Origin: Patiria miniata
Lineage: Eukaryota
NCBI RefSeq assembly: GCF_015706575.1
Contig: NW_024037061.1
Coordinates: 1,043,897 to 1,107,896 of the forward strand
DNA length: 64,000 nucleotides
Direction: 5' to 3'
Shown here: positions 17,276-63,650 of the stretch, one piece after another
Position numbering within the stretch: position 1 is the first letter of the stretch
Layout of the letters: the number at the start of each line of letters is the position of its first letter
Translations under genes and position numbers: made by a program
Notes under the pieces: generated by a model
Seen by the model: only the letters and a program-made list of their open reading frames with translations
What the model was told of the DNA's origin: nothing
Database searches by the model: none

Positions 17276-17590
17276 TAACCCATAGGCCCTTTTTGCTAGG
17301 AACCATCCTCAAACCGTCAAAATCCTCCAAAACTTTGCACTTATGTTCAAATGAAGGATACAGCGCCTCAATCCTTCAAAATCGTCAGACAGTCCTGCCT
17401 CTCAAATTGCATTCATCCTCAATCCTCCAAAATCCTTCATTCATCCCAAATCCTTTAAAATCTCCTCTTCTTCAAACACCACTCAATCCTTCAAAATCCT
17501 CATGTGCTTCAACACCATCCATCCTCAATCCTCCAAAAATCCTCCGAAACCGCCATGAGGATTTTGGAGGATTGAGGAGAGTTAGGGTTA
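17276..17590. mobile_element. TTAA-flanked MITE family 1, copy A (partly diverged).
   Basis: Termini ttaaccc.../...gttagggttaa. Internal catcctcaatcctccaaaatcctc sub-repeats and the inverted ggaggattttggagg. Homologous to 28625-29021 and 35264-35703. Confidence 0.5.
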
Positions 17591-19866: not shown

Positions 19867-20127
19867 ATGCTTTTTACGGTGTGCTACGCTTATCTGACGT
19901 TCTCCACGGCTTGGCGTGACTACAGGCAGAAGGCCAAGGTGATGAACGCACTGCGTTGCCATGGCAGCAAGGCCAGCATCGCATTTCGCAAGATCCTCCA
20001 GGAGGGCGTGGTCAGCGAGGGAGACAAGACGAGGGCGTCGTTTCTTTGCGAGATTGGAGAACAGCCTGTCATCTCTCAGCTTCTCGGCGAGAAGAGAGGC
20101 AAACAGATGCTTGTGGTTCATCCGAAG
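19867..20127 (+). CDS. HLCS: HLCS putative first coding exon.
   Basis: ATG at 19867. Open 87 codons. Donor AAG|gttggt. Phase 0 matches exon 2. The N-terminus is poorly conserved, so the link is weaker than for later exons. Confidence 0.4.
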
Positions 20128-23100: not shown

Positions 23101-26100
23101 TCCTTCATCGGAACCTCAACCCCAAGCCTGTCGCCCTACAAGGATCCAGACCAGGCCGCCTCCTCTTCCTCAAATCCGGACTCCGTCTTTGTTCTCCTGG
23201 AGGCCTCCCCGCCCAAGACGGATCGGCAGGGTCGCCTGAATCTGCGCAAGGTGGCCCGGGAGCGAGTCGTGAAGCTCTCCGGGCTGACCACTCCACTGGC
23301 GTGGAAATCAGGCGAGCCGTTTGGCATTCTGGTCCAGGCCTCTGCCAACAACTTTGGGCTGGTGGGCTCTGCCTATCTGGAAGGGGTGCTGGAGCTTGAC
23401 GACGGCCTGCTGGTAGAGCAGATAGTCTGTGAGTACATGTGAAACATTGTAGTGATTGGACCGATAGCATGTTGAATATGTTGAATAATAAACCAGCCAA
23501 GCATGTCAATCACGGGGGTTCCCCAGTCGCCACCCGCGATACGGCAGTCTTGTATGCAGTGTGAAACCGTGAAGTCGTGTCCCTCTCTGATGTGTGGCTG
23601 ACTCTGCGCTGCCTCACGACTCCGCGCTGCTATAGCTCTAGACTCCCATAGTACTGCTGTACTACAACATCAGGTTTGGCAAAGGTAGTGAGAGAGTGCA
23701 TGGGTGAGAGTTGTTAGTACCGGTAGGAGACTGTCTCAAAATTGAAAGCATACAAGGTTCATTCAGAATATAGTACAGTCTTGATGACATTTCACTGGTG
23801 AGATTATTTTGGATTTGTGATATAGAAAATGGCAAATTTCAGCTGTGACAGCTTACTCTGTGTACAATCATTTTTCAGGTGTTGATACAATTGGGGAGCC
23901 GTTCAACCTCGTCAATCAAGACCCCAAGACTCCTTCGCCTTCCCCCTTCCCACCCGGTTCCCCCTTCCACCGTTCTCCCTCCGGAAACAGCCTCCTCCAA
24001 AGATCAGGTTCGTCCAAAAAGGAGGTAAAACCGCTGCGCCGGAAACACTCTCAGGAATTCCTCAAGAAATTGGAGGAGCAGCATCAGAGAATTTCCCGCA
24101 AATCCTCGTCGGAGTCGAGCGACCTGGGTGGCATCTCGGTCGAAATGGCCGGTCAGGGACTAGATGATGAAGTACTGGTGGACATTGAAGGGAGTCCGAA
24201 ATTTCATCTAGGAGGAGCCACAATCGACGTTGGAGGCACATCCTCGGGAGATGCCAGCAATGTCTCAAGGAAGCCTCCCAATCTTCTTGTGTATACGGGA
24301 AGTGACGACACGGACAAATCCAGATACAAGTCCTCGGTGGCTTTTCTGGAGAAATTCCTGCACCGGGATCGCTATGTCATCTACCATTTGGAGCAAGAAC
24401 AAGCTTTGAAACATCCGTGGGCCGAAAACTGCAAGCTTCTTCTCCTAATGACGGGCAAAGAACCCATTCCCGAGAACACACTGAAGAAGTTTACCGATTA
24501 CGTTAAGAGTGGCGGATTTCTTTTCGTACTTGATGGCCAAAGTGCCAACTCTGAAACACCTGCGAGCGTGAGCGCTATTAAGTACTCGGAAATGCTCGGA
24601 GGGGAGATGCTGTCCTTTCAAGGCCTTTGTTCTGAGGATCCCCTAAAGAGGGACTTGTTTCCTGGGGGACAAATGAAGGTGCTGGCAGAGAGTCAAGGAA
24701 ACGCTGTCATTACCGAAACTTCCTTCAAAGGTAGCGCAGGAAAAATCATATCTTCTCAAGTAAGTCACTAAAATCTACATGTATCAATACACTTACATGT
24801 AGTATTCCGGAGTTTGCAAGTTCAAACCTCGCTCAATGCAATTTCTTTGTTCGAGCTTTAAATTACAAAAATGCATCATGTTTGTTGTCTTGTTGTGGTT
24901 CATTTGAAGATGTATATCATTGTATAACCAGTTCACGCCGGATGACTAGTATACCAGCAAATTGGTTTTGCGGTATTCGGAACAAATGACTGATAAACAC
25001 GCAGGGAGCGATGCCGGAAATATCTGTCAGAGACCCGCTCGTAGCGAGCAAGGTCGGGAATATGAGTGTGCTGCCCGAGGGTGATGGTTTCAACCCGCCT
25101 GGCTTGAGATCGCGTGAAAAGTAATCCCGCACCTCGTTCCGTTTTTGTCAAAATAATCCCGCGCCAACTGGTTAACATTTAGGAATAATTTTTTACATCT
25201 GTAATTGCGATATTTCCACATTGAAATGAAAAAAAAAAAGTTCAAATTTTTTGATGTCAAGATTTGGGCTGTGAGGTTGAACTAACATGTTCATGTAGTC
25301 ATGACTCATTCCCTGTACAATTTACAAGATGCATGCTCGTCATGTCATTCGTCACATTAGCATTTCAGTCCATGGAAACATGTGCATATGATTACTACCA
25401 GATAACGTGACACTGTGACGATATTAACAACTGCCCGTCTGAAGTTAGATTCCTATCTATCACATTTCAAAATGAGAAAAGAACATGTGATGCTGAGTCT
25501 CATTAGTGAACAGAACAAAAAACCACAAGGGAATGTGACCATGCTACATTGAACATTTGTTGACTGCTGTGATGTGGGTTATGGTGTTTTAACACCCAAG
25601 GGGCGCATAGCACCCGAAGCGAATTATGGAACAAAGTGATTGACTGGAGTGGGGTTTGAACCTGCGACCTCCGGATTGGTGTTCCGGTGCTCTACCAACT
25701 GAGCTATCCAGCCCAATGTTGGCAGTTACCTATTTTGTCAATGTCTTTGTTCAAGGGGCGCTAGTCAGAAGCCATGAACTATATGCCATGCATGTATCCA
25801 GGGATCACGCCCAAAGTCACGATGCTAGCAACATTAACAATGCTGCAAACCTGGAAAATATGTAGAAAACAGTGATCACTCAAAGAGGATACATCTTTTT
25901 ATTGCAAATATTCAAATAAACAACATTTTAATCAAATATGTGCATAAATTTTCATGTTTTTATGGTAACAGGTCCAGCTTCAACTCATCTCCCCAGAGAG
26001 TCTGGTTCCGGACACCGAAGCCTTTACTGAACTTAAACAGTCCAATGAGGTCCGACACCAGGTCATCTTTGACCTTCTGGGCCGGCTGGGGTTAAAGTGC

Positions 26101-29100
26101 GCGACCTCCGAGCTACCAGATCTGACTGCCGGCTACCTGCTTGGTGTTAATGAGGTAAAACTGAAAAAAATGCTGCTAAATTATGTTTTAGTTAAACATG
26201 GGGAAGGTATTTTAGAAAAATATCTGGTTGATTAAGTTTCAGAAAACTTGCATCAAACATGCAATACACTGTTTTGAAATAAATTAGAATAAAAAAAATT
26301 GACTAATTTCTTGCTTGGCTTTTCACTTTATTGATACATACCATCGTACACATTTCATCTTTTCATAATGTGTTACCCTCACATTTAAAAATGCCATACT
26401 ATTATTTTGTTAATTATTTTTTTCAACATTATTTTATCAGTGTCTATTCAATCAAGATTTAAAAAGAGGTCATTTTTCCTCCCTCTGGAAGTGACCCTTT
26501 TGATTCATTGCAGAAATTAGAAAATTATGGTATTAACAACAACACAGGAAAACATTACCGTTCTTGTGTAATAAGAATCTGCCTTCAAAGATTTTTTTTT
26601 ATTTTTCAAATATCTGAAGTACTTAAGAAGATTTTTTTTTATGTGTATGTTTGGTGAGAAAGTACACAAAGTATATTCTTACGGTAGGGACAATTGTAAT
26701 GATGAGAATACAGGATACCTTACAGATGCAGCTCTGACTAAAAGGCGCTTGTTAAATCACTATTTTGTCTGGTTATTTTATCAGGCAGTTTATAGTGGAA
26801 TCCGGCGACCAGAATTTGAAGTTTTTTCTGCGGTGGTGTCATGCTCACGCGCATGCTGCAGGCATTCTTAAAGACGAGGCGCACGCGCATTTTGGTATTC
26901 CTATTGGTTGAAGGCGCCTGGAGTGCATGTGTACTACCTGAGGGCGACTCGCGCGAGTCTGGTGCCACCGTAGAAAATTGCTGCCGCCTGATTTGTCTAT
27001 TGGCAATGTGGATCTCGTGTGAAAATGTAGATATTCGGGTCTGGCCGCATTTGTCACATTAACGTATATTGTTTCTCATGGTCCCTATTCGAACGACGGA
27101 TGTGAATCAAGTTTTAATATTTTACACTTCTGAAAAGATATCCATCTTTGTTTTATGATTGATGATGGTTGTGTCATCAAGTGACATTGTTTATCGCAGG
27201 GCAGGACCTCCATGGAATGCGGGCTAGCGCGATATGGGCGCGTGCAGGACTTGCGTTGACTTGTATGTGTATCACACGGAATGTGACGGTCTGCCAACAT
27301 GTAAAAATGACAAGAATCTGCGAATCCATTAATTTTTTTTTATCCTGACTGGCTGTAGTTTCTTTCAGTTTGTTTATCACTCATCAGAAAGCAATCCGTT
27401 TGATTTCTAGTCATGCAAGACACAAGATGAGTATTTATTTTTTTGACAGCTTGCCTGTACATAACTTCGAGCAGGTTTCGTATTCCATATATTCCACACA
27501 TGCACGGGCATCTGTTTGGAGCATGCTGTTTCTCCTGCTCACTTTGAGCTTAAATTACAAGTACATGTACATGTCGTGAAGAATACTTAGTCATATAGTT
27601 AAAGGGAATATACAACATTTACAAACATCGAAAAACAAAACTACCAAGTGTTTACGAAATACCTTACTAGGATGTTGGTAAATGACAGTCTAAAGCATCC
27701 TGTAAAGTTATGTCACCTGGTGTGAAGTCATTTTCAAGAAAATGGTATTTTTGTATACATTTCCAACGGTGGTCAGCCGACCACTATTGGAAAAACCTAA
27801 CTATTTTTCAACTATTGCTCCAAATTTACAAATGTTTTTTTCAGTCAAAATGTTGTTTGCTATTGGTTACATGTTCATGAATGGGTGCAGGCCAGCTAGA
27901 CTGGTTCCCTTACCTTACAATTTTCCAGCATCTATAAATTGATCCATTTTATTTTTACTGGAGTCAGGGAACCAGACTACTTGAGCTTTTTTGTTTTTCT
28001 TGGTTTTTCCAGCATTTTCGAACACAAAACTTCAAACATGTCAGTGTAACAATATTTGATCTATTATACTAACCCCTCAAATACCGTAGTTCATTTCTGA
28101 AAATTAGAGCAAACATTCCCTTTAAATGAAGCATGTGTCTACATGTGTTGAATCCAAACCCTGATATTTCAAATTGTTTGCTGTCACATGGATTTTAAAG
28201 TGTAAGAAATTCACATGGTTTAAGAATGTACAGTTGAATTTGCACACGACATGTATTTTTTTTTTTGGGTAGCTTTTATGTACCGGTACATGTACATGTA
28301 CATGTACATGATGTAGCTTTTTTTTTTGTTTTTTTGTTTTTTAATATCTACTATAATACATGAACATGTATGTTGGCTAGAAGTATACAATACATACATG
28401 TGCACTGCCTCACAATTAAAAATTGAATAAAAAAACTAGCTCCCTGTATTGCTCTTCTAAAGGGGCCACACGGGCAGATACAAGGGGGTGGTTTGGTGCA
28501 CCCCCCCCCCTTCCTCACCTTCCAGCTGGGCAAGTTAAAAAAAAATTAATAAAAAAACCCACCAAAATTCCTTAATTCTCCTGATTAACACCATCACTCA
28601 ATATTGCAAATCGTGATTCATTGCTTAACCCTAACCCCCTAGGCCCTTGTTGCTTACAACCATCCTCAATCCTCCAAAATCCTCCAAAATTTTGCAACTC
28701 TGCCTAAATTTTTCAAAATTGTCAGACAGTCCTGCCTCAAAATGCATTCATCCTCAATCCTCCAAAATCCTCCTCATCCCAAAACTTTGCACTCGTGTTT
28801 AAATGAAGGATAACCAATGCCAAATCCTTCAAAATCATCAGACAGTCCTGCCTCAAAATGCATTCATCCTCAATCCTCCAAAATCCTCTTGTGCTTCAAT
28901 CACCATTCATCCTCAATCCTCCAGAACCCTCATTTGATTCAATCACCATTCATCCTCGATCCTCTAGAATCCTCCAAAACCGCCAGGAGGATTTTGGAGG
29001 AGTGAGGTGGGTTAGGGTTAAGGCCTTTCAGTCTGTTTATGCATTGACGGCAACGTCTTGTCCACCCTTTCCCCCCCCCCCCTTGAAAAAAGTCAACACC

Positions 29101-32100
29101 CCAACCATCCCCTTTGGAACATCCTGGACCCTCACTGGGCCATTATTTACCCATTTTGACTTGGAGCGTGCTTCGGTGTATTTGACTCATGAATATTGAT
29201 ATTTCTTTCAATATGCAAATTGGAATACTGTATATTTTTTGGTTAATAGGCCTATGATTTTTTAATGCTTTAGATTTTTGTCTACTGAAAAAAATTTAAC
29301 ATTGCCTCTAATCAGGACTCAGAACTTTAAACAGACATCTATAAGACAAAGACTACAATGTGCCAGTACTGGTACCTAGGAAAGGTTTGCATGCACAATC
29401 TGAATATTGGACTTAAACAAATTGAAATCAATTTTCAAAACAAAAATTCCTTTTTTATATACAGCAAGTGGCAAGTGCCTTCTTGACGTCCATCCAGCCA
29501 AACCTTAAAGACAGTCAGCTGGCAAGTCGCTATCTCACTATGCAGTTTAACAGCGACCCGGACAAGGTCGGCCAAGCGACCCCCGACCTTCTGCCGGTCA
29601 TCACGGGTCAAAGTTCACCGCGGGGCGGAGCATTCGACTTCGAAGTTTACAAGAAACATTTGACTAGCAAGAGACTTGGGAATGTTGTGCTGTACACGGA
29701 GGTCGTTCCAACAACTATGGTTCTATTTGAAAGGTAAAGATATGTACATCCACACTAGTAGAGAGCTCTATTAAATGGAACTAGAGCTATATTAAATTCA
29801 TACACAGGCATGCAACTTTTCCTCGGATCAGCTGATTTCCTCTTTTTTTACTTCCCATGTGTTCCATTGAAAATAGAAAAACACTGTACAAAGTCTGGGA
29901 AAAATTTGAATTTCCTCTTTTTTTGTGATTTCCCAGTTGCATGCCTGCATACAATGTACGTTCATTCATTACTTTTACCGCAAGTTGAGAAAACAGAGTA
30001 ACAAGAGTATGGAAAACTCCAAAGTTTGTATAGTTTTTGTATCGCTTTTAGCATCTGGGTCTGTATTTGAAAATTGATTCATAAGTAAAGTCAATATGCC
30101 CAAAACCAAAAAGCACAATTAGTAAATTATTCCACTCTGTGATAGATGTAATACTTTTGATTTTACGGTCTTGTGAAACTGTACCCATATGCGTATTGAA
30201 TACAGCCGAAATGTTTTTTTTGGTGGAATTCGGAGTTTTCAGCTGTGAAATTCCATTACATGAATGTTCAACAGTCGCGTTCAAAATGTTCGCACCAAGA
30301 ACGTGTACAAGAGCGTTCAGCATAAAGGAATAAAGAGTTGGTGCTGTAGTCATTTCACTCGAATCGTGCTCAATCCAACAAGATTCTGCATAATTCAAAT
30401 GAACCCTCGACTCCTTACCTTGAGGGAAAGGGAAAATGTTGTCTCTTTTGCATGAAGCAGTAAACAGGTTCATCCATCATGGCTGCAATATTTGAAAACG
30501 CTGGTGACCCTTAGTAACCAGTTCACGTCGGACGACATACATGCAATGTTTTGCGGTATTCGGAACGCATGACGGATAAACACGCAACGAGCGAGGCTGG
30601 AAATATCTGTCAGCGACCCGCTTGCAGCGAGCGAGGCCGGAAATATCAGGGTGTGCTACCCACAGATGACGGCTTGAACCAGTCTGGCATCAAGGTTCGT
30701 TAAAACAATCCCTTGCTGGGTCTGGTCAATGTCAAAATAATCCCGGCGCAAACTGGTTAAGAACTTGTTTTTTCATAATTGCCATATCCTGTGCACTTAC
30801 ATTTGAGCTCATTTCAGTTCGCGTATCTTCATGCTACATTTTTTCAGAGGTTCACCTTGAATGACATTTTGTTGATTATTCCATACGATTTGACTATAGT
30901 ACAACCCATTTAAGTTAGCGCGATGGCACCAGTTATACCACCAAGCGCCAATGTAAGACGCGGCACAATTGTATACAGATGCATCATTGTCTTGATCGTA
31001 AGTGGTGAACGGCCAGCCATTGTGATACTCCAATGCATTACCAGCCGTACTCAGCTCAACGTATGCCTCAACGCGAAGAGTATACTTGTCTCCTTCGATG
31101 CGAAACTCGCCGTACTTGGCCCATGCCGTAGTGCCGTTCAGTGCCTCTAATTCGACCAGCAGCTCCCATCCGCACGCCAACTCCGTCAATTGACGTACCA
31201 TGTCGTTTCCCAGCCAGAACTCGCCGGCCAGGTCTCCGAACCCTGCTCGGTACACCGCCCAATTGCGGTAGAAGTTGACACTGCCGTCCTGACGTCGCTG
31301 AATGGTCACCCAGCCTCCTCCGTCGGTGGTCATGTCGCAGTAGGCCTGGAAGTTGCGTTGAGCTACGGTGAGGTTGTAAACCCCGCTCGCCCGTTCCCCA
31401 GCCTCAAACAAAGTCCTGCAGGTGACAGCATCAGGTACAGCCAGGAGATCGCTGCCATCGTAGTAGACGAACCCCAGCATCTGTTTGAAATCCCCGGGTT
31501 TTTGAGCCTGATCAGCATCATTCAAGACACACAACTGTCTGTGCGAGCAGTAATTGACTGAGTGACACCGAGGATCTGAATGACAGTCGCGTACGCAGAT
31601 TACGGACGACGCCGTCTTCCTCCATGCATAATCGCTGTATACAAGTCCGTGATTACTGGCAGCTCGAAAAATAGCTCCTAGATGCTTGCCACTGCCTCGT
31701 GGCAGAAGGACACTGACAACAAAAATCAAAAGTCTGACGGTAGTCGCCTCCCATTGTGTCTTTGGATACATGATTCTTATGCACCCGTAGTAATCAAAAG
31801 ACGTTGAAACTTAATTGATTCGAGTAAACTACCACAAGCCTGAAGCATTTGTTCAATATCCTTTGAAGCGCAGTGTACAAAAGGTTGTCGTTTCGCCGGT
31901 CCTCACTTTCTGGTGACCACAACCACACTGCGCCTTTCCTCGTACTGATATACACGTACATGCACCAACTAAAACTGACACAAGTCTGATTGGGTATGCA
32001 CACAGAGCGCTGAAGATATTGGGAGTGGGGTAATTACCCTGTACGGCTATCAATTTTGGTAGTGTAATATAAAAACTTGCAAAATTGCCAATTACGGTAA

Positions 32101-35100
32101 TTAGGCTCGGGTTGTTTTATAATATATCACGTGCCTGCTTGGAGCCGTGCAAGGTCTTTGGCCAATAAGTGAATATTTATTACAGGATGCTTTAATTAGT
32201 TGCCATTGTAACAAAGCCTCCTGCGATACAATTAAAGGGCGTCCCTTTTTATTTCTATGGCTCTCATATTTTATTTTTTGCCTTTGAAGTTCACCTAGGG
32301 TCGGTCAAGACAAAACAAAACTCTGAACAATAAAACAGAAATTGCAGTTGCAACCGTATAGATTGCTAAATTAAATGATCCCAAGTGCTATTGTCTCTAG
32401 TTTTGTTTTTCGCCATGAGTTTATTAGCAGTTGATCACTGAAAAGAATAATAAAAGCGTATTTGGCAAGATGTAGTTGACTTATATTGTATCTGCACCTA
32501 GCAGCTCACTAACGTCAGATGTTTTGGCCATAGTGATAGCCATGACATACCAGTAAAGTTTTACCATAGATTGACACCTAATATGATGAGAGGCAACATC
32601 CTCTCATCTTCTGAAATTCCACTAGTTGCTATACGTGTACGTCGTTCTTAGCAAAGCAAAATAATGTGGTATTATTAATAGCTTTTCAAATAACACCAAG
32701 CCTGGTTGCCTGAATTTTGTTTTATTATTTTTGTTTTTTTCGTTTGTAATTGTTTTATTTCTTAATGGGGTTCCAGACAGGTTCGACGGTAATGAAACAG
32801 TTTTTTTTTTCCTTGGGTTGGGATTCTAAAATAGGGTCAGCCGGAAATGAGAACCAGTTGAGCTTCAAAGATGTTGAAATTGAACTGATTTAAGAAAACT
32901 ACGGCAAACCTGATTTACTTGTTCAACATACATGTACGTGTATTAGCACAGTGCAATCACCACCACAGCGCACCAACTATTAAACTGACACAAGTCTGAT
33001 GGTATCTACACAGCACTGAAAAATACCTGAGTAGGATAATTAGACAGTGTGTGCATGTACATGTATATGGCCGTTAGCTTTTGGTAGTTTAATTTTAAAA
33101 AATAATGGAGGAAAGAGTAATCACCTTGAGACCGGGATTAAGCCTGTTTGGTCCATAGGTTATTGCCAATTAATTAGGCTCGAGCTTGTTTTAGTCGTAA
33201 ATTACGCGCCTGCTTGGAGCCGTGCAGGATTATTGGCCATCACAACAAGGCCTTTGGTGCAATTACTTTGGGATATAAGAAGATATTAAAGGGAATATAC
33301 AACATTTGCAAACATCAAAAAATAAAACTAACAAGTTTTTACAAAATACCTTACTAGTATGTTGGTAAATGACAGTCTCAAGTATCTTGTAAAATTATTG
33401 CACCTGCTGTGAAGTCATTTTCAAGAAAATTTTATTTTTGTAAACATTTCCAACGGTGGTCGGCCGACCAGCGTTGGAAAAACCTAACTATTTTTCAACT
33501 ACTGCTCCAAATTTACCTTTTTTTTTCAGTCCAAATTTTGTTTGCTATTGGTTACATGTTCATGAACGGGTGCAGGCCAGCTAGACTGGTTCCCTTGCCT
33601 TACAATTTTCCATCATCTATAAATTGATCCATTTTATCTTTTGTGGAGTCAGGGAACCAACTACCTGAACATTTTTGTTTTTCTTGGTTTTTCCAACCTT
33701 TACGAACACAAAACTTCAAAAATGTCAGTGTAACAATATTTGATCTATTATACATGTACTAACCCCTCAAATAGTTCATTTCTGAAAATTACAGCAAAAG
33801 CCAATGATGTACATTCCCTTTAAACGCTGCTGCGTGAATTTGATGAATTTAACAGATCCAAAACTCACATTTCCCCCTTTTTTGTACAGTTTGATGTTCA
33901 AGGTTCCAGGGGACGTCGGTGTTGTTGCTATAGCAACCCGCATGACAGCAGGAAAAGGTGAGAACGTAAATTCTTTGAGTAGCTGTTAACTGTTCCTTTG
34001 CCTTGTAAATTTTCCGTCTTTTGTTTTATGGTAAATTTGTAATTATTATTATTATTAATTATTTCTGGTAATGAAACTAAGGATTCTTCAAAAGCGCCTT
34101 AGGCACTGAAGCTCGCAAGCATGAATAAACCTTAGAAGACGATGAGAATTAATTACAGTTTTAGGTGGGAGGTAGACCCCAGAAGAATATTGGGGGGGGG
34201 GGGGGGGAACCGACGGAATCGGGCAGGGACTCAAATCCAACCTGGCGGGATTAGAGCTCGAATCACAGGGTGTAAACTGCAACTATTGCGAGCGTTATCT
34301 GTTGTGCGTTAAAATGCACATAACACGTGAAATCTGTTTTGGCTTTCCATGTAGCCTGGTGTTCAGTTTGATATTCCCCACAAATGGCATGCAAAACTTT
34401 TCTGTTTCATTGTCTGAGACGTTACTAAGTAATTGTAAAGTTGGTTACGGGTACCCGATCCGGTAATCTGGAACCGGTTCCTGACATCAGCGGTCGGGTA
34501 CTTGGGTATCGGTTCCGATGCACACCCTTAGTGTTAAGGTGTTATTTGTTTATGGAATCCATTTGTGATATTGTGTTAGGACGTGGTGGCAACAAGTGGC
34601 TAGGACCCATAGGCTGTGCCATGTTCTCCTTGCACGTGCGGATTCCCTTCGGTTCAGAGCTTGCCGACAAGCTCCCGTTCTTACAGCACATTGCTTCGGC
34701 TGCCGTTGTTGAGGCTGTCAGATCCATAAATGGCTATCAGGTAAGCTCTGCTTAACAGAATGCTAAGTAATTTTCTAAGCAGAATTGTTTTTTTTGTTGA
34801 GTGTCTGAACTTGAATATTACTGCAAGTTTTTGAGTACATTCGTTTTAAGAGCATGCTGAACATGGTTACAAGAATGTCTCAGAAAGGGTGAATAATGAA
34901 GAAGTACAAACAAGAACATTGGTTTAAGTGTTGGCTCTGAAACAGGCCCTTCGCGTGAAACATTTGCATGAGCATTCATAGATGTTCAACTATTTGTGTA
35001 TTGACTACGTATTTTTCAACAAGACAAACTCTCCAAATTGCGTCTAAAATTTGTGTGGACATTACAGGACATAGATCTGCGACTGAAGTGGCCCAACGAC

Positions 35101-37451
35101 ATCTACTACGGTGACAAGATGAAGCTAGGTGGAGTCATTGTCAATTCAAGTGCATTGGACAATGTGTTCCATGCAATTATTGGTAAGATCGCATCATGAT
35201 CACATGAGGGAAAAAAGTGGTAGGACTGTAACACTTGGTGAGTCTGTCATTGAAGAGACAGGCTTAACCCTAACCCCCTAGGCCCTTGTTGCTTACAACC
35301 ATCCTCAATCCTCCAAAATTTTCCAAAATTTTGCAACTCCGCCTAAATTTTTCAAAATTGTCAGACAGTCCTGCCTCAAAATGCATTCATCCTCAATCCT
35401 CCAAAATCCTCCTCATCCCAAAACTTTGCACTCGTGTTTAAATGAAGGATAACCAACGCCAAATCCTTCAAAATCATCAGACAGTCCTGCCTCAAAATGC
35501 ATTCATCCTCAATCCTCCAAAATCCTCTTGTGCTTCAATCACCATTCATCCTCAATCCTCCAAAATCCTCATGCGCTTCAATCACCATTCATCCTCAATC
35601 CTCCAGAATCCTCATTTGATTCAATCACCATTCATCCTCAATCCTCTAGAATCCTCCAAAACCGCCAGGAGGATTTTGGAGGAGTGAGGTGGGTTAGGGT
35701 TAATAAGAAAAATTATTCTAAAGATTAGTACATGAAAAACTCAGTGTTTGAAACAGTACGACGTCATCTCATTTATCTGGGATAAGTTGCAGACAGGTGT
35801 ATCTGCAATAGGCAAATTGTATCAGATAAGAAGAAGAAGACTTTTTTGGGGGGAGGATGGAGGCTAGTCATCCTTACATCTAGCTGAGAAGCTGAATTGT
35901 GAGGGACGCAGCTACAACGTGATCGAGCCGAAGGCATGTAAAGGTGCCTTAGGGAGTCACCATACGACCCATGTCTGACCACAGAGCACAGCCAGATCCA
36001 AAGTGTTGATTTTTGCAGAGGGAGGACAACCGGAGAGCCCGGAGAAAAACCCTGTACTCTACTCAAATATGGCCCAAGCCGGGAATCGAACCCGGGCCAC
36101 AGTGGTGAGAGACGAGCACTTTATGCTCTAGCCACCCGTGCCATCAGTGGCAAGAGTCTGAGATTAATTGAAATGTAGATTAATGTAGATTAATTTAAAA
36201 GTTAATTTGTCTTTCAATATTTGGTTTTGCCCTTCGCCAATGTAATTTGATGCCGTCTGAGAGTCCATACTTAATACACACGGACTCGAATCCATGACCT
36301 CCTGCTTACTAGTGCAGACATCTTTCTACTCAACCACAGAGCTTGCTGAGGTCGGCTGGCTGGTTCGAATGCGACTAATTTGTTCTGTCTTCCTAGGCTG
36401 TGGTTTCAATGTTGACAACAGCGACCCAACGATTTGCATCAACGACCTAATCCGGCTTCACAACAAGCAGACCAATGCAAACCTGGCGTTGTTGACCATA
36501 GAAGAGCTCATCGCGAGGACCATCAGCCAAATTGAAAGCATCATCCAGGTTTTCCAGAACAAAGGAGCAGAGCCATTTCTGGAGATGTACTATAGGAGAT
36601 GGTTGCACAGGTAAATATATGGGGTCAGAAGTGGGATTAAATTCAGATCTGGCGTTGTCGCCCCATGGTTTTCCAGAGGGAAGGGGCAGAGTCGTTTCTG
36701 GAGATGTAGTATAGAAGATGGCTGCATAGGTTAATATATGGGGTTAGAAGTAGGATTAAATTCAGATCTGGTCTTTGTATCAGGTGTTGTCGCCAAAGGT
36801 TTCCAGAGGGAAGGAGCTGAGTCATTTCTGGAGACTATAGTCATTTCTGGTACTATAGGAGGTGGTTGCATAGGTAGTTATTGGGGGTACGGTCAGAAGT
36901 GGGATTAAATTTAGACCTGGTCTTTGAATTAGGGGTTGCCGCCCAAGATGTCTAGAGGGAAAGAGCTGAGTACAAGTACAATAGGAGGTAGCACATGTAC
37001 GTATTTGGGGTCAGAAGTGGGATTAAATTAAGATGTGGTCTTTGTCGTGGGCGTTGAAGCCAATGCATAAAACCAAGCACTGTGTATAGGATTCACAGTG
37101 TTTGCACCATAGAGCTATAATCAAATAATAGAGCTCTTTAATTTGCACGCATTTGGAAATTGTTTTTTCTGAACTAAACATGTTCTTGAAATGCACACGC
37201 AAAGATGGAATACTGATCTACTGACTAATTCCTATATTCCAGTGTCTTAATGGCCCTTTCTTGTATTTGGCAGTGGCTGTAAGGTGCGTCTCGAGAACGA
37301 GTCCGGGCCTGAAGTAACAGTGGAAGGCTTAGACAGGTCTGGTTTCCTCTCGGTGAGAGACCAACAGGGGGCGCTTCGCAGCGTCCAACCCGACGGCAAC
37401 ACCTTTGACATGACCAAGAACCTGGTGCTGATGAAGGAGAGACGGGAGTGA
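19867..37451 (+). CDS. HLCS: Holocarboxylase synthetase / biotin-protein ligase gene, 10 coding exons: 19867-20127, 23071-23428, 23879-24759, 25972-26154, 29465-29733, 33890-33957, 34580-34740, 35068-35182, 36397-36610, 37274-37451.
   Basis: All junctions are GT-AG with continuous phase. Diagnostic BPL motifs: [19 protein letters not shown] (catalytic GRGxxxW loop), [44 protein letters not shown], and a C-terminal domain ending MKERRE*. The exon-3 segment [48 protein letters not shown] matches the conserved N-domain of human HLCS. AATAAA at 37662-37667. Confidence 0.85.
21230..21665. repeat. Minisatellite: about 5 tandem copies of an 88-90 bp unit (HLCS intron 1).
   Basis: Unit gagctcttaagtgattggccagttctgctcaaatgccccagactgcagaatctcattggtcaacagctgg..acctcattgat. 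Confidence 0.7.
23071..23428 (+). CDS. HLCS: HLCS exon 2 (low-complexity Ser/Pro-rich N-region).
   Basis: Acceptor tgtccaacag|. Donor T|gtgagt. GC-rich. Confidence 0.7.
23879..24759 (+). CDS. HLCS: HLCS exon 3 (large N-terminal domain exon).
   Basis: Acceptor tttttcag|. Donor CAA|gtaagt. ORF 23845..24771. Confidence 0.85.
24925..25175. mobile_element. MITE with TIR TAACCAGTT.../...AACTGGTTA, copy 1 (HLCS intron 3).
   Basis: taaccagttcacgccgg ... gcgccaactggttaa. 80-85% identical to 30515-30760. Confidence 0.5.
25641..25713 (-). tRNA. tRNA-like sequence (degenerate). Probably a tRNA pseudogene or a SINE head, not a functional tRNA.
   Basis: The reverse complement GGGCTGGATAGCTCAGTTGGTAGAGCACCGGAACACCAATCCGGAGGTCGCAGGTTCAAACCCCACTCCAGTCA has good D- and anticodon arms. 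Position 33 is C, and the acceptor and T stems are mismatched. Confidence 0.35.
25972..26154 (+). CDS. HLCS: HLCS exon 4.
   Basis: ggtaacag|GTCCAG ... AATGAG|gtaaaa. 61 codons. Confidence 0.85.
27599..28125. mobile_element. TTAA-flanked MITE family 2, copy 1 (TTAA|agggaatatacaac ... cattccct|TTAA).
   Basis: 11-bp TIR agggaatatac / attccct. Internal hairpin ccaacggtggtcagccgaccactattgg. In HLCS intron 4. Partial relatives at 2395-2470, 18000-18230 and 57395-57470. Confidence 0.55.
28625..29021. mobile_element. TTAA-flanked MITE family 1, copy B (TTAA|ccctaaccccctaggcc ... ggtgggttagggt|TTAA).
   Basis: TTAA at both boundaries. About 30-bp TIRs plus internal tandem sub-repeats. Located in HLCS intron 4. 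Confidence 0.6.
29465..29733 (+). CDS. HLCS: HLCS exon 5.
   Basis: tatatacag|CAAGTG ... GAAAG|gtaaag. Protein [19 protein letters not shown]. Confidence 0.85.
30515..30760. mobile_element. MITE with TIR TAACCAGTT.../...AACTGGTTA, copy 2 (HLCS intron 5, 50 bp from the FReD stop codon).
   Basis: taaccagttcacgtcgg ... ggcgcaaactggttaa. Confidence 0.5.
30809..31771 (-). CDS. Intronless fibrinogen-related domain (FReD) protein, 320 aa, with signal peptide and Cys-rich N-region. Nested antisense in HLCS intron 5.
   Basis: Single ORF with a real ATG. The C-terminal fibrinogen domain is unmistakable: [48 protein letters not shown] ... [42 protein letters not shown]. Confidence 0.85.
   Translation of the reverse strand: MYPKTQWEATTVRLLIFVVSVLLPRGSGKHLGAIFRAASNHGLVYSDYAWRKTASSVICVRDCHSDPRCHSVNYCSHRQLCVLNDADQAQKPGDFKQMLGFVYYDGSDLLAVPDAVTCRTLFEAGERASGVYNLTVAQRNFQAYCDMTTDGGGWVTIQRRQDGSVNFYRNWAVYRAGFGDLAGEFWLGNDMVRQLTELACGWELLVELEALNGTTAWAKYGEFRIEGDKYTLRVEAYVELSTAGNALEYHNGWPFTTYDQDNDASVYNCAASYIGAWWYNWCHRANLNGLYYSQIVWNNQQNVIQGEPLKKCSMKIRELK
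33286..33823. mobile_element. TTAA-flanked MITE family 2, copy 2.
   Basis: atatTTAAagggaatatac ... acattccctTTAAacg. Ends 66 bp upstream of the HLCS exon-6 acceptor. Confidence 0.55.
33890..33957 (+). CDS. HLCS: HLCS exon 6.
   Basis: tttgtacag| ... AAAAG|gtgaga. Protein [23 protein letters not shown]. Confidence 0.8.
34580..34740 (+). CDS. HLCS: HLCS exon 7 (catalytic GRGGNKW loop).
   Basis: tgtgttag| ... TATCAG|gtaagc. Confidence 0.9.
35068..35182 (+). CDS. HLCS: HLCS exon 8 (KWPNDIYY).
   Basis: attacag| ... ATTATTG|gtaaga. Confidence 0.9.
35264..35703. mobile_element. TTAA-flanked MITE family 1, copy C.
   Basis: ggcTTAAccctaacccc ... gggttagggTTAAtaag. Located in HLCS intron 8. Confidence 0.6.
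36069..36155 (-). mobile_element. tRNA-derived SINE fragment.
   Basis: The reverse complement carries a tRNA-like head with the B-box GGGTTCGATTCCCGG. Confidence 0.45.
36397..36610 (+). CDS. HLCS: HLCS exon 9 (GCGFNV).
   Basis: tcttcctag| ... CACAG|gtaaat. Confidence 0.9.
36590..37035 (+). repeat. Tandem array of about 4 units (about 125 bp each). It duplicates the 3' end of HLCS exon 9 plus its donor site and the start of the intron. Copies 2-4 are degenerate.
   Basis: ggagatgtactataggagatggttgcacaggtaaatatatggggtcagaagtgggattaaattcagatctgg is followed by ggagatgtagtatagaagatggctgcataggttaatatatggggttagaagtaggattaaattcagatctgg and two more decayed units. Confidence 0.65.
37274..37451 (+). 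CDS. HLCS: HLCS exon 10 (C-terminal domain, stop TGA).
   Basis: tatttggcag| ... TGA at 37449-37451. Confidence 0.9.
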
Positions 37452-44200: not shown

Positions 44201-46553
44201 GTACCACATTTGATACCCTGCGAACTTAATCCGCCTGTAATAGTATCGCTCAGAATATAACAATCATTAATAGGGAAAGAAAGTATAGTATCCAGACGCC
44301 ACTTCTTCGGTCATGTACCAAGTCTATGGAGAATTAAGAAACTTTTCTCTAAATAAGTATTTCCTAACAAAATTTGAAAGGTTTCTCAGTCCCAGATTCA
44401 TGTCGTCTTAATTTTCAACATTTTTGCAATGACTGACCTTCATTGAGATGATATATGAAGGAAACAGAGGCGTCAGGTTGCAACATTCCTTCCACTAGTA
44501 GAACTTTGACGTCAGGTATACACTTACCGGCTGAATGAGAATCACGTCCGAAGTGTTGAACTTGAAGGTAACTTTTGAATTGGAAGACCAATTAACATTT
44601 TAAAACTTTGTTCAGGTGTTGGAGCTGTAATGACCGTATCGCCAAGCATGATCATGATCTCACACTACTTCAAGAGACGCTACGTATTGGCCAATGGGCT
44701 AGCTGTGCTTGGACTGAACGTTGGTCAGATGGTCTTCCCGCCCTTAATCCGTCTCCTGGTCGTCAGCTACGGGTGGAGGGGCGCCATGTTTATCATTGGA
44801 GCGTTGCAGTTGCACGGGGTTGCCGCTTGCGCCCTCTTCCGGCCGCTCAAGGCCAGCCTCAGTAAAACCCCTCAGCACGAAGACATTGGAACTAGTAATA
44901 AAGAAAGAACCAATTCAGCCAACGCTTTTCTAGAGTATCTTAGATGCTTCCAGATCTTCGCGAACGTCAAAGCGATGTTAGTTCTGATCTCCAACAGTTT
45001 GCACTCAATGGCGATAATGGTAAACCTTATTCATCTACCGGAGCGGTCGAGGGAAGCTGGCTGGTCGCGTGACCAGAGCGCCATGTTGGTTTTCGTCTAC
45101 GGTCTGGTATCCGTAGTCACGCGCTCCACCCACGGTTGGTTCGTGGACAGGAACCACATTGGCTCCTTCAAGCTCCAGTTGCTGGTGATTCTCGGGGCGA
45201 CTGTCACTTCTTCCTTGAACCCCGTGTCGGACAGCTACGTTTTCTTGGTCGGCTACACTGTCGTTTTGGGAGCTTTCCTCGGTGCATCCACTCCTCTGTT
45301 GATCGTGAACATGAAGAATGTTGCCAGTGCGTCGCAGGTGCCGGCTGCTCTGAGTTTGGTATGGGCTTCCATATACCTCTTCAATGGCATTGGATCGGTT
45401 GTTGCTGGTGAGTACGCATATTTTATAGGCCTACATTGTAATAACAGTTGAATGTTCACATGGTAAATTCCTCTATACGATTATCTCCTGACGATGGGCA
45501 GGGCGCATTGTTCGAAACATTCAGTTTCTGCCTTTTTAATCGTCACAACATCAATTTTATTCAATTCAATTCAATTCAATTTAATTCAATCAATTCAATT
45601 CAATTCTGTTTATTGTCTACGTTAAAAACATAGAAATTTGATGCCCACTGACAAATCTGATAACACACTTAAAAACCACACACTAATTCACAGATAACCA
45701 AACAATACAATTAAATACTAATGTACCACGTGTTTCTAAAAGAGAAAATCCACGTTAAACAGTATATGTTAATTCCCAATAAAAACTACTTTATCTTCAT
45801 GATAGACCACAAGAAAAAGAGAAAAACAGGCTAAGAAGTATTAAAAAGAGATTTCTTGTAACATAGTGCATAAAATTAAGTTACCCTTATCTACGTGTTC
45901 ACATTATGTTGAAGACCAAACTCCATCGAGTTTTTAAGCAGATATGCTTAGCATGTTTTGGGCCATGCAAAAATCACTGGGGATCGACCAGTCTTAAGCA
46001 GCATACATAGCATGGCATTCGGCTAGTAACCTGTATTTTCTAAACCAGTATATGTTCAACACATAACACATTACTGTGCTATTAAGCTCCAAGATATTGA
46101 CCGCAAGTTATAATGCGCATGTGTGACGTTTAGACTTGAAAGACTTTTTATCTTGAAAGGCAAACATTTGGGAAAAAACACCCAATGGTGAATGTCCCAA
46201 TACCACTTTTTCCACTGTCAAGATGATCAAGATCACAATTCTTCTCAGTCATTGAAGTCAATTTATTTTTCATTTGGTGTAATTTTGCTGCAAAAGAAAG
46301 GTGCGTACACGACCTATTGGTTACTTTCGAGTGTTGTTTTGCATTTTCAGGTAAGATCTACGACGCCACTGGGAATTACGTAGCGCCTTTCCTGACGAGT
46401 GGTGCGATGTTTCTGTCCGCGTTTCTCGTTTTTGCTATAGTGACATTCATGAAGCGGAGAGAAGACAGGACGCAAGACAAAAACAAGATGAACACCTCGG
46501 GCGCTTTACGGTACCATACTGCGGCCGACGGCTTGGAGGAAAATAGTCTCTGA
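41040..46553 (+). CDS. Monocarboxylate transporter (SLC16 / MCT family) gene, 4 coding exons: 41040-41230, 43582-43722, 44616-45407, 46351-46553.
   Basis: N-terminal signature DGGWAWVVLLGAHVG..YTEWKEVFE..ASWLVSMPM (compare MCT1 DGGWGWAVVIGAF..FFKEIE..VSWISSIML). Also YFKRRYVLANGLAVLGLNVGQMVFPPLI and GWRGAMFIIGALQLHGV. All junctions are GT-AG (T|gtaagt, tcag|GC, ttcag|GT, G|gtgagt, tttcag|GT) with continuous phase. TGA at 46551-46553. Confidence 0.85.
41331..41570 (+). mobile_element. tRNA-derived SINE (MCT intron 1).
   Basis: Head gcttggcgtagcggtac...gacccgggttcgattcctgcc. Confidence 0.5.
42079..42246. mobile_element. Perfect palindromic foldback element, arms about 78 bp (MCT intron 1).
   Basis: gggaataaatgtgtgttcggtcagtattaaacactctgtttaagaccggtttgagtctggatgggcgataattaccc | tcggcttcgcctcg | exact reverse complement. 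Confidence 0.55.
42289..42558. mobile_element. Short element with 12-bp TIR (catgggcgtcgc / gcgacgcccatg). It encloses several G10-14 / C10-14 homopolymer tracts arranged as inverted pairs.
   Basis: Sequence read directly. A related G/C-tract block sits at 8250-8640. Confidence 0.4.
42722..43010 (+). mobile_element. tRNA-derived SINE (MCT intron 1).
   Basis: Head gcgctcgcctctcagcaaggtgaccacggttcgaatcctggcc. Confidence 0.5.
43582..43722 (+). CDS. MCT-like exon 2.
   Basis: Protein CFFVGVLASRVGIRRVSMLGAAVTGLATILGSKTSHIGQLYVCNGLL. Donor G|gtgagt. Confidence 0.8.
44616..45407 (+). CDS. MCT-like exon 3.
   Basis: ORF 44630..45451. Donor GCTG|gtgagt. Confidence 0.85.
46351..46553 (+). CDS. MCT-like exon 4 (C-terminal tail, stop).
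   Basis: Acceptor ttttgcattttcag|. ORF 46317..46553. Confidence 0.8.

Positions 46554-61913: not shown

Positions 61914-63650
<1,737 letters not shown>

What the first reader, a model, noticed from the sequence alone, without database searches (positions are those of the whole stretch)
36590..37035. HLCS exon 9 donor junction tandemly quadruplicated into the downstream intron
The last roughly 55 bp of exon 9 (..GAGATGTACTATAGGAGATGGTTGCACAG) together with the donor gtaaat and roughly 70 bp of intron are repeated 4 times head-to-tail. Copies 2-4 accumulate stops (GTAGTATAG) and mutate the donor (ggttaat, ggtagt). This yields a series of decoy or pseudo-exon ends immediately after the real 5' splice site of an essential gene. 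It is an unusual micro-duplication that could modulate splicing efficiency.
Basis: seen in the sequence. Interest (0 to 1): 0.5.

Follow-up and report, generated by a model that had tools for sequence, protein, structure and literature searches.

The report
Exon-end and splice-donor repeat inside intron
In the bat star's biotin-ligase (HLCS) gene, the end of exon 9, its splice donor and the start of the last intron were copied head-to-tail to four copies; the three extra copies are decaying inside the intron, so this is a tidy but ordinary relic of tandem duplication with no sign of a function.

Summary
Four head-to-tail units (119-150 bp) span window 36548-~37065. Unit 1 holds the last 63 nt of coding exon 9, the working donor CAG|GTAAAT and 56 nt of intron. 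Units 2-4 are degenerate copies (86/82/69% identical to unit 1) lying entirely inside the 663-bp last intron.

The gene is the HLCS orthologue of the sea star Patiria miniata. My 10-exon model translates to 895 aa, 100% identical to RefSeq 'biotin--protein ligase-like [Patiria miniata]', so the annotated mRNA uses the first donor.

The same intron position exists in Acanthaster planci, Asterias rubens and a brittle star, none of which has the array. Units 2-4 keep ancestral exon states (FQREG, Ser) that the working exon has since changed.

All three pseudo-donors keep GT but score far below the real donor. The donor motif decays no more slowly than the rest of the unit. No RNA structure, Rfam match or other copy in the window was found.

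Best reading: an old, lineage-specific tandem duplication across an exon-intron junction, tolerated because splicing from the first donor removes it. The 'decoy' idea is untested and has no support from conservation. This is a new example of a known kind; interest is low to moderate.

The parts
36397..36610 (+). Coding exon 9 of the biotin--protein ligase (HLCS) gene. Its last 63 nt (36548-36610) are the exon-derived part of repeat unit 1.
   Evidence: The spliced 10-exon model gives 895 aa, 100% identical over 100% of its length to the RefSeq P. miniata protein P0154. The acceptor is AG at 36395-96 and the donor is GTAAAT at 36611.
36548..36666 (+). Repeat unit 1 (119 bp): 63 nt of exon, the working donor CAG|GTAAAT and 56 nt of intron.
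   Evidence: The donor scores about 9.4 bits, the best GT in 36397-37273.
36611..37273 (+). Last intron (intron 9), 663 bp. About 455 bp of it is the array. An in-frame TAA lies at 36612-36614.
   Evidence: tblastn read-through gives '...WLHR*'.
36667..36797 (+). Repeat unit 2 (131 bp), a pseudo exon end. It has an acceptor-like TTTTCCAG|A at 36676/36677, a TAG stop at 36707-09 and the pseudo-donor TAG|GTTAAT (GT at 36730-31).
   Evidence: It is 85.6% identical to unit 1. It translates to [18 protein letters not shown].
36798..36947 (+). Repeat unit 3 (150 bp). It contains an internal 19-bp micro-duplication (36820-36858) that shifts the frame, and the pseudo-donor TAG|GTAGTT (GT at 36874-75).
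36948..37065 (+). Repeat unit 4 (about 118 bp), the most degenerate. It has a 26-nt deletion in the exon-derived part, the pseudo-donor CAT|GTACGT (GT at 36997-98) and an intact intronic core.
   Evidence: Unit 1 matches 36976-37047 at 82.7% (E = 2e-15). The exon-only query no longer detects it.
37066..37273 (+). Unique 3' part of the intron, with the polypyrimidine tract and the acceptor (ttgtatttggcag|T).
37274..37451 (+). Coding exon 10, the last exon (BPL_C region), ending in the stop TGA at 37449-51.

Best explanation
This is an old tandem duplication specific to the Patiria lineage. The duplicated segment began 63 nt before the end of exon 9 and ended about 70 nt into the last intron of the HLCS gene.

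The new material sits downstream of an intact exon 9 and its donor. Splicing from the first donor to the single acceptor therefore removes all extra copies, and the protein is unchanged. That is why the duplication could be fixed.

The first pseudo-copy was then amplified to three, as an ordinary intronic minisatellite. The copies have since decayed by substitutions, a stop and frameshifting indels. The array now makes up about two thirds of a short intron. Most likely it has no function beyond being intron filler that carries weakened cryptic splice sites.

Shown: the repeat anatomy, the gene model, absence of the array in three orthologues, ancestral states kept in the copies, and weak pseudo-donors. 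Inferred: the slippage or unequal-exchange origin, neutrality, and exclusive use of the first donor in vivo.
For: Repeat anatomy:
- There are four adjacent units and no other copy in the 64 kb.
- Only exon 9, out of ten exons, has exon-derived copies elsewhere in the window.

Gene model:
- My 10-exon model equals the RefSeq P. miniata protein at 100% identity and 100% coverage, so the first donor gives the annotated product.

Comparison with orthologues:
- Orthologous loci have the same exon 9 / exon 10 junction but no array. These are A. planci L002 (intron about 1.15 kb), A. rubens L003 (about 1 kb) and the ophiuroid contig L001 (6.2 kb).
- The start of the A. planci intron (ATGGGATCAGAA) resembles the intronic part of the unit (ATGGGGTCAGAAG). 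The unit is therefore local sequence and not an insertion.

History of the copies:
- Units 2-4 encode FQREG..ESF, matching A. planci FQREG and the Ser found in A. rubens and the ophiuroid. The working exon now reads FQNKG..EPF.
- At two alignment columns all three pseudo-copies agree with at least two of the three outgroups, against the working exon.
- Units 2-4 also share derived bases and a 13-nt segment that unit 1 lacks.
- Pairwise Jukes-Cantor (JC) distances for the intron part are 0.14-0.30.

No sign of selection:
- The donor motif diverges at 8/27 sites against 63/314 elsewhere (p = 0.23). GT would survive in all three copies about 23% of the time by chance.

Background:
- Minisatellites of 36-83 bp are common in this window.
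Against: - No transcript data could be examined, so low-level or regulated use of the pseudo-sites is not excluded.
- Each pseudo-copy still has an acceptor-like YAG whose pyrimidine content is within the range of the gene's real acceptors, followed 41-67 nt later by a GT. They are formally possible cassette pseudo-exons.
- A 21-23-nt G-rich intronic core (GGGGTCAGAAGTGGGATTAAATT) is identical in units 1, 3 and 4. It is better kept than the rest of the unit at p of about 0.02-0.05, uncorrected. This could hint at a constrained intronic element.
- Only one assembly of one individual was available.
Confidence: 0.8

Rival explanations
1. The pseudo exon ends act as decoy or poison splice sites. 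They bind U1 and U2AF unproductively, or are occasionally spliced in. This lowers or regulates HLCS output through intron retention, an early stop or NMD.
For: - All three copies keep GT at the homologous position, and each has an acceptor-like TTTCCAG|A 41-67 nt upstream.
- Any use of the downstream donors meets TAA at 36612-14.
- Decoy exons that promote intron retention are documented in human cells (PMC6097662).
Against: - The array is absent from A. planci, A. rubens and an ophiuroid, whereas described decoy exons are highly conserved.
- The pseudo-donors score at most 6.1 against 9.4 bits, and the motif decays at least as fast as its surroundings.
- The intron is 663 bp, whereas the decoy class is enriched in introns longer than 1 kb.
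- Only one protein is on record for the gene, and it uses donor 1.
Confidence: 0.08
2. The array is still an active, copy-number-variable minisatellite (VNTR) in P. miniata populations. The four-copy state is one allele among several.
For: - It is in tandem arrangement.
- Units 1 and 2 are the closest pair (JC 0.14), so the latest event is younger than the others.
- Other minisatellites are frequent nearby.
Against: - Units differ by 14-31% and by unit-specific indels. This disfavours frequent unequal exchange.
- No second P. miniata sequence could be retrieved to test the idea.
Confidence: 0.1
3. The array is an assembly artefact, that is, a falsely expanded repeat.
For: None directly. Only one assembly was seen.
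Against: Artefactual expansions give near-identical copies. These units are 69-86% identical to each other and each has its own indels: a 19-bp micro-duplication in unit 3, a 26-nt deletion in unit 4 and a 13-nt gap in unit 1. The units also carry phylogenetically sensible ancestral states.
Confidence: 0.01
4. The repeat is a dispersed element or satellite that landed next to exon 9. The exon end either resembles it by chance or was recruited from it.
For: None found.
Against: - The 63-nt exon end is conserved, coding and in the same position in three species that lack the array.
- There is no other copy of the unit in the window or in loci L001-L003.
- The core motif is absent from the metagenome contig collection.
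Confidence: 0.01

Closest known systems
Internal (intragenic) tandem duplications that include exon sequence and splice signals: the 'tandem genomic duplication' class of Rogers 1989, Gao & Lynch 2009, Hellsten et al. 2011 (PMC3265369), Lehmann et al. 2010 (PMC2891723) and Ma et al. 2016 (PMC4974935)
   Same: A short tandem duplication inside a gene copies exon sequence together with an AG|GT signal. Splicing removes the extra copy, so the protein is unchanged. The duplicated exon piece then decays as intron sequence.
   Different: No new intron was created here. The intron already existed at this position in other sea stars and in a brittle star. The duplication crossed an existing donor, so it lengthened an existing intron and multiplied the donor only. 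The unit was then amplified to four copies.
Tandem arrays carrying repeated 5' splice sites that give alternatively spliced introns in human genes (Zhuo et al. 2007, PNAS 104:882). This is cited from my own knowledge. The reference is listed in PMC3488318, but the paper is not held.
   Same: It is a tandem array in which each unit carries a donor-like site downstream of an exon.
   Different: In those cases transcripts show use of the repeated donors. Use is untested here, the downstream donors are degraded, and any use would be non-productive because of the TAA at 36612-14.
Decoy exons that promote intron retention (Parra et al. 2018, PMC6097662)
   Same: They are non-coding exon-like segments with a 3' and a 5' splice-site-like sequence inside an intron of an expressed gene.
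   Different: Described decoys are highly conserved and lie mostly in retained introns longer than 1 kb. This array is lineage-specific, decaying and in a 663-bp intron. Retention is unknown.
Ordinary intronic minisatellites
   Same: Units of 119-150 bp lie head to tail, are diverged and are confined to one locus. Similar arrays are frequent in the same window.
   Different: The first unit straddles an exon-intron junction. The array therefore contains recognisable pseudo-coding sequence and pseudo-donors, and it preserves ancestral states of the exon.

Membership tests
Biotin--protein ligase / holocarboxylase synthetase (HLCS) gene | The encoded protein is an orthologue with the BPL_N, BPL_LplA_LipB catalytic and BPL_C regions. 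| tested here: met
   The spliced model is 100% identical over 895 aa to the RefSeq P. miniata biotin--protein ligase-like protein. It is 82% identical to A. planci and 70% to A. rubens, with PF03099 and PF09825 precomputed. BPL_C is a weak hit on the C-terminus.
Tandem repeat (minisatellite) | Two or more head-to-tail copies without spacers, with similarity beyond chance. | tested here: met
   There are four abutting units. blastn gives E = 2e-33, 1e-17 and 2e-15 against no other hit below 0.2 in 64 kb. TRF scores 357 for the first two units.
Intron gain by tandem genomic duplication (Rogers model) | The duplicated segment contains exon sequence with an AG|GT site. | tested here: met
   The unit holds the last 63 nt of exon 9 and CAG|GT.
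Intron gain by tandem genomic duplication (Rogers model) | The duplication creates an intron at a position that lacks one in relatives. | tested here: not met
   The intron is present at the same codon position (…WLH S|G…) in A. planci, A. rubens and an ophiuroid. This is extension of an existing intron, not gain of a new one.
Intron gain by tandem genomic duplication (Rogers model) | The coding sequence is left unchanged after splicing. | tested here: met
   The model that uses donor 1 is colinear with the orthologues and equals the RefSeq protein. This shows the annotated product. It is not direct transcript evidence seen here.
Decoy exons (Parra et al. 2018) | A cryptic exon with both a 3' and a 5' splice site inside the intron. 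| tested here: inconclusive
   There is an acceptor-like YAG with pyrimidine fraction 0.56-0.72 (real acceptors of the gene: 0.44-0.83), and a GT 41-67 nt downstream. The donors are weak on a rough PWM recalled from memory.
Decoy exons (Parra et al. 2018) | High conservation across species. | tested here: not met
   The array is absent in A. planci, A. rubens and the ophiuroid L001. The pseudo-donor motif is not conserved above background.
Decoy exons (Parra et al. 2018) | The host intron is retained, and junction reads to the cryptic exon appear when NMD is blocked. | not testable with these tools
   No RNA-seq data are available here.
Alternative 5' splice sites from tandem arrays (Zhuo et al. 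2007) | Transcripts use donors in different repeat units. | not testable with these tools
   No transcript data are available. Only one protein product is on record for the gene.
Assembly artefact (false repeat expansion) | The copies are identical or nearly so. | tested here: not met
   The copies are 69-86% identical to each other, with unit-specific indels.
Structured RNA or miRNA cluster in the repeat | A stable, conserved fold or a match to a known RNA family. | tested here: not met
   Fold z-scores of the four units are -1.8, -1.9, 0.0 and +0.9, and the whole intron gives -0.7. There is no Rfam hit in the region.

The most novel reading that the evidence does not exclude
The array of pseudo exon ends, together with its well-kept G-rich intronic core, has been co-opted in Patiria as a splicing regulator of the HLCS gene. 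It could act as a set of decoy or poison pseudo-exons, or as repeated intronic enhancers that tune removal of the last intron. That would be a young, lineage-specific regulatory element born from a duplication across an exon-intron junction.
Probability: 0.07. Interest if true: 0.5.

Novelty: new member of a known kind. Interest (0 to 1): 0.2.

Why it matters
It is a clear natural example of how a duplication that starts inside an exon can be harmless when it also copies the donor. The spliceosome uses the first donor and the extra copies become intron.

The decaying copies act as a small fossil record. They keep ancestral codons (Arg-Glu, Ser) that the working exon has since replaced (Asn-Lys, Pro).

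This adds a case to the literature on internal gene duplication and intron growth. It does not change that literature. It would matter more only if transcript data showed that the pseudo-sites are used or regulate the gene.

Tried and rejected
- **Structured RNA or miRNA in the units.** Fold z-scores are unremarkable and there is no Rfam hit. Rejected.
- **Dispersed repeat or transposon.** There is no other copy in the window or in L001-L003, and the core motif is absent from the metagenome contigs. Rejected.
- **Independent P. miniata or close-relative sequence, to test artefact and copy number.**
  - The exact look-up of the RefSeq protein found nothing.
  - Look-ups of three ORFs in and around the array found nothing.
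  - A second metagenome scan with the exon-end/donor pattern found nothing.
- **Closer relatives of Patiria.** The 90%-cluster protein search returned only P. miniata, A. planci and A. rubens among sea stars. The age of the array within Asterinidae therefore could not be narrowed.
- **First protein search.** The 130-aa C-terminus query returned only 2 hits and missed the identical RefSeq protein, so negative results from that tool are weak.
- **Papers not held.** Gao & Lynch 2009 and Zhuo et al. 2007 are not in the library and are cited only second-hand or from memory.
- **Donor scoring.** The PWM used frequencies recalled from memory. It supports only the ranking, not absolute strengths.
- **Conservation of the intronic core.** The column-shuffle test is only marginal (p about 0.02-0.05).
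Full report
**1. Observation**

Reading 36200-37400 shows a head-to-tail repeat. blastn of the first unit (36548-36666) against the whole window finds three further adjacent copies:
- 36667-36771, 87.6% identical, E = 2e-33
- 36800-36920, 72.7% identical, E = 1e-17
- 36976-37047, 82.7% identical, E = 2e-15

Nothing else in the 64 kb scores better than E = 0.2. TRF sees only the first two units (period 119, 87% matches), because units 3 and 4 carry indels.

A MAFFT alignment of the four units has 75% mean column identity. The units are 36548-36666, 36667-36797, 36798-36947 and 36948-~37065. Pairwise identities are 85.6% (1-2), 82.2% (1-3), 81.5% (2-3) and 69-73% for unit 4 against the others. 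The repeat is real and far beyond chance.

**2. Gene and organism**

The ORF ending at the repeat and the one after it translate to the C-terminus of a biotin protein ligase, with a weak Pfam BPL_C hit. A profile-free scan of 1.84 billion representative proteins gave a best hit of 83% identity. That hit is Acanthaster planci 'biotin--protein ligase-like'.

I used it to place the exons. I then built a 10-exon model whose nine introns all begin with GT and end with AG:
- 19867-20127
- 23071-23428
- 23879-24759
- 25972-26154
- 29465-29733
- 33890-33957
- 34580-34740
- 35068-35182
- 36397-36610
- 37274-37451

The model translates to 895 aa. It is 100% identical over 100% of its length to RefSeq 'biotin--protein ligase-like [Patiria miniata]'.

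The window therefore comes from the bat star Patiria miniata, and the gene is its HLCS orthologue. The exon is indeed the ninth coding exon, and the intron that holds the array is the last one (36611-37273, 663 bp). The annotated product corresponds to use of the first donor. The importance of HLCS (human deficiency causes multiple carboxylase deficiency) is established knowledge and was not tested here.

**3. Anatomy**

Unit 1 consists of the last 63 nt of exon 9, the donor CAG|GTAAAT (GT at 36611-12) and 56 nt of intron.

Units 2-4 lie wholly in the intron and make up about two thirds of it. At the position homologous to the donor they read TAG|GTTAAT (GT at 36730), TAG|GTAGTT (GT at 36874) and CAT|GTACGT (GT at 36997). 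On a rough donor matrix, with frequencies recalled from memory so that only the ranking counts, the real donor scores 9.4 bits. No other GT between 36397 and 37273 exceeds 6.1 bits.

In the exon-like frame the units are disrupted as follows:
- Unit 2 reads [18 protein letters not shown], with TAG at 36707-09.
- Unit 3 carries a 19-bp micro-duplication (36820-36858) that shifts the frame.
- Unit 4 has lost 26 nt.

These lesions do not matter for read-through. The frame leaving exon 9 reads CAC AGG TAA, so there is a stop at 36612-14.

Each unit begins with an acceptor-like TTT(T)CCAG|A. Its pyrimidine content (0.56-0.72) is within the range of the gene's real acceptors (0.44-0.83). Units 2-4 are therefore formally possible cassette pseudo-exons of 53, 67 and 41 nt, none a multiple of three.

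**4. Comparison with relatives**

Three orthologous loci were retrieved:
- A. planci, L002
- Asterias rubens, L003
- an ENA metagenome contig, L001, whose exons are 88-91% identical at the protein level to the brittle star Amphiura filiformis

All three have exon 9 and exon 10 split at the same codon (…WLH S|G…). Their last introns are about 1.15 kb, 1.0 kb and 6.2 kb. None has a repeat of the exon end or donor, either on reading the sequence or by TRF.

The array is thus specific to the Patiria lineage among the taxa available. No closer relative could be found.

The A. planci intron starts GT-ATGGGATCAGAA. This resembles the intronic part of the unit (…ATGGGGTCAGAAG), so that part is native intron sequence and not an insertion. 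Only exon 9, out of ten exons, has exon-derived copies elsewhere in the window.

**5. History (inferred from the alignments)**

At two alignment columns all three pseudo-copies agree with at least two of the three outgroups, against the working exon.
- One column is the first base of a Ser codon: TCN in the copies, A. rubens and the ophiuroid, but CCA (Pro) in the working exon.
- The other column lies in the Arg codon of FQ-R-E-G (the Arg is shared with A. planci and the ophiuroid), which is now Asn in FQNKG.

The founding duplication therefore predates at least two amino-acid replacements in the real exon, and the copies preserve ancestral states.

Units 2-4 also share derived bases and a 13-nt segment missing from unit 1. 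This fits one founding duplication followed by amplification of the pseudo-copy.

Jukes-Cantor distances for the intron-derived part run from 0.14 (units 1-2) to 0.30. At commonly assumed neutral rates of 1e-9 to 5e-9 per site per year, this means tens of millions of years. That figure is my rough inference, not a measurement.

The junctions (…CCCAT|GG, …CCAAA|GG, …CCAAG|AT against exon …TCCAG|GT) allow a few bases of microhomology. This is compatible with slippage or unequal exchange but is not proof of either.

**6. Selection and function**

The nine-base donor motif in units 2-4 differs from the real one at 8 of 27 positions, against 63 of 314 for the rest of the unit (Fisher p = 0.23). Survival of GT in all three copies is expected about 23% of the time by chance. 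There is therefore no sign that the pseudo-donors are maintained.

RNA folding of the four units gives z-scores of -1.8, -1.9, 0.0 and +0.9, and the whole intron gives -0.7. Rfam has no match in the region.

The best-kept part of the unit is an intronic G-rich core, GGGGTCAGAAGTGGGATTAAATT. It is identical in units 1, 3 and 4, but the excess is marginal (p about 0.02-0.05, uncorrected).

Minisatellites of 36-83 bp are common in the window, so tandem amplification is ordinary in this genome.

**7. Best explanation and rivals**

The best explanation (confidence about 0.8) is a neutral relic. A tandem duplication crossed the exon 9 / intron 9 junction and placed a second exon end and donor inside the intron. 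The first donor is contiguous with the intact exon and is the strongest, so splicing removes the rest and the protein is unchanged. The pseudo-copy later amplified and decayed.

The rivals are:
- **Decoy or poison-exon regulator (about 0.08).** This is possible on sequence grounds but is contradicted by the lack of conservation and the weak sites.
- **Still-variable VNTR (about 0.1).** This is compatible with the main reading but is disfavoured by the divergence between units.
- **Assembly artefact (about 0.01).** This is excluded in practice by the 14-31% divergence and the unit-specific indels.
- **Dispersed element (about 0.01).** This is excluded by conservation of the exon end in species without the array and by the absence of other copies.

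**8. Relation to what is known**

The closest known class is internal tandem duplication of gene segments carrying AG|GT. It has been reviewed and demonstrated as a route to intron gain (PMC3443670; PMC3265369; PMC2891723; PMC4974935).

The present case works the same way, in that splicing hides the duplicate. It fails that model's defining feature, the creation of a new intron, because the intron predates the duplication. It is extension of an existing intron with multiplication of the donor.

Tandem arrays with repeated donors that yield alternative introns in human genes (Zhuo et al. 2007) are the nearest structural analogue. I cite that paper from memory. The reference is listed in PMC3488318, but the paper is not held. 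Use of the repeated donors is untested here.

Their conservation criterion is not met.

**9. Verdict**

The structural interpretation is correct, and the functional suggestion is unsupported. This is a new example of a known kind of event. It is neat as a small fossil record of exon evolution, but it would not surprise a specialist. Interest is 0.2.

Noticed in passing
window 30809-31771 (-): A single-ORF gene is nested on the opposite strand inside HLCS intron 5. It encodes 320 aa with a PAN_1 domain (7.6e-08) and a Fibrinogen_C domain (6.4e-59), making it a ficolin/FReD-like protein.
   Followed up: partly
window 25641-25713 (-): A tRNA-Gly with anticodon ACC lies in HLCS intron 3 (ARAGORN; Rfam tRNA 54 bits). 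From my own knowledge, an ACC anticodon is unusual for eukaryotic tRNA-Gly. It may be a SINE-like or pseudo-tRNA copy.
   Followed up: no
window 17449-17525, 28861-28974, 35500-35656: The same 43-bp (or 36-bp) minisatellite consensus (CATTCATCCTCAATCCTCCA.AATCCTCATGTG.TTCAATCAC) occurs at three separate places, two of them in HLCS introns. It looks like a dispersed element that carries an internal tandem array.
   Followed up: no
window 21247-21660 and 52751-53154: Two large, well-kept minisatellites are present: 83 bp x 5.0 in HLCS intron 1 and 64 bp x 6.3 downstream of the gene, both at 90% matches.
   Followed up: no
window 35859-36123; L003 9051-9334 (-): A stretch of about 270 bp in intron 8, with tRNA-like motifs, matches a different intron of the A. 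rubens HLCS locus at 73% on the opposite strand. It is probably a SINE family shared between distant sea stars.
   Followed up: no
L001 1006-1034 and 1174-1203: In the brittle-star contig, a piece of about 30 bp from inside exon 9 (CAGTAACCTTACCCTATGCACAACAGAAC) is copied, with one mismatch, about 30 bp into the same last intron. This is an independent small transfer of exon sequence into the intron at the orthologous junction.
   Followed up: no
L002 25575-25657; window 62291-62507: A 'TCACAAG'-type satellite with 11/21-23-bp period occurs both in the last HLCS intron of A. planci and near the end of the P. miniata window.
   Followed up: no
window 44630-45451 (+): A 273-aa ORF with a Major Facilitator Superfamily domain (MFS_1, 1.1e-19) lies downstream of HLCS. 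It is probably a large exon of a neighbouring transporter gene.
   Followed up: no
window 36623-36645, 36889-36913, 37007-37031: The intronic core GGGGTCAGAAGTGGGATTAAATT is identical in units 1, 3 and 4, although those units are otherwise 18-31% diverged. The column-shuffle p is about 0.02-0.05. It could be a G-run intronic element or simply chance.
   Followed up: partly
tool behaviour: The word-indexed protein search with the 130-aa C-terminus missed the 100% identical RefSeq protein, which the full-length query later found. Negative results from that search are therefore weak.
   Followed up: yes
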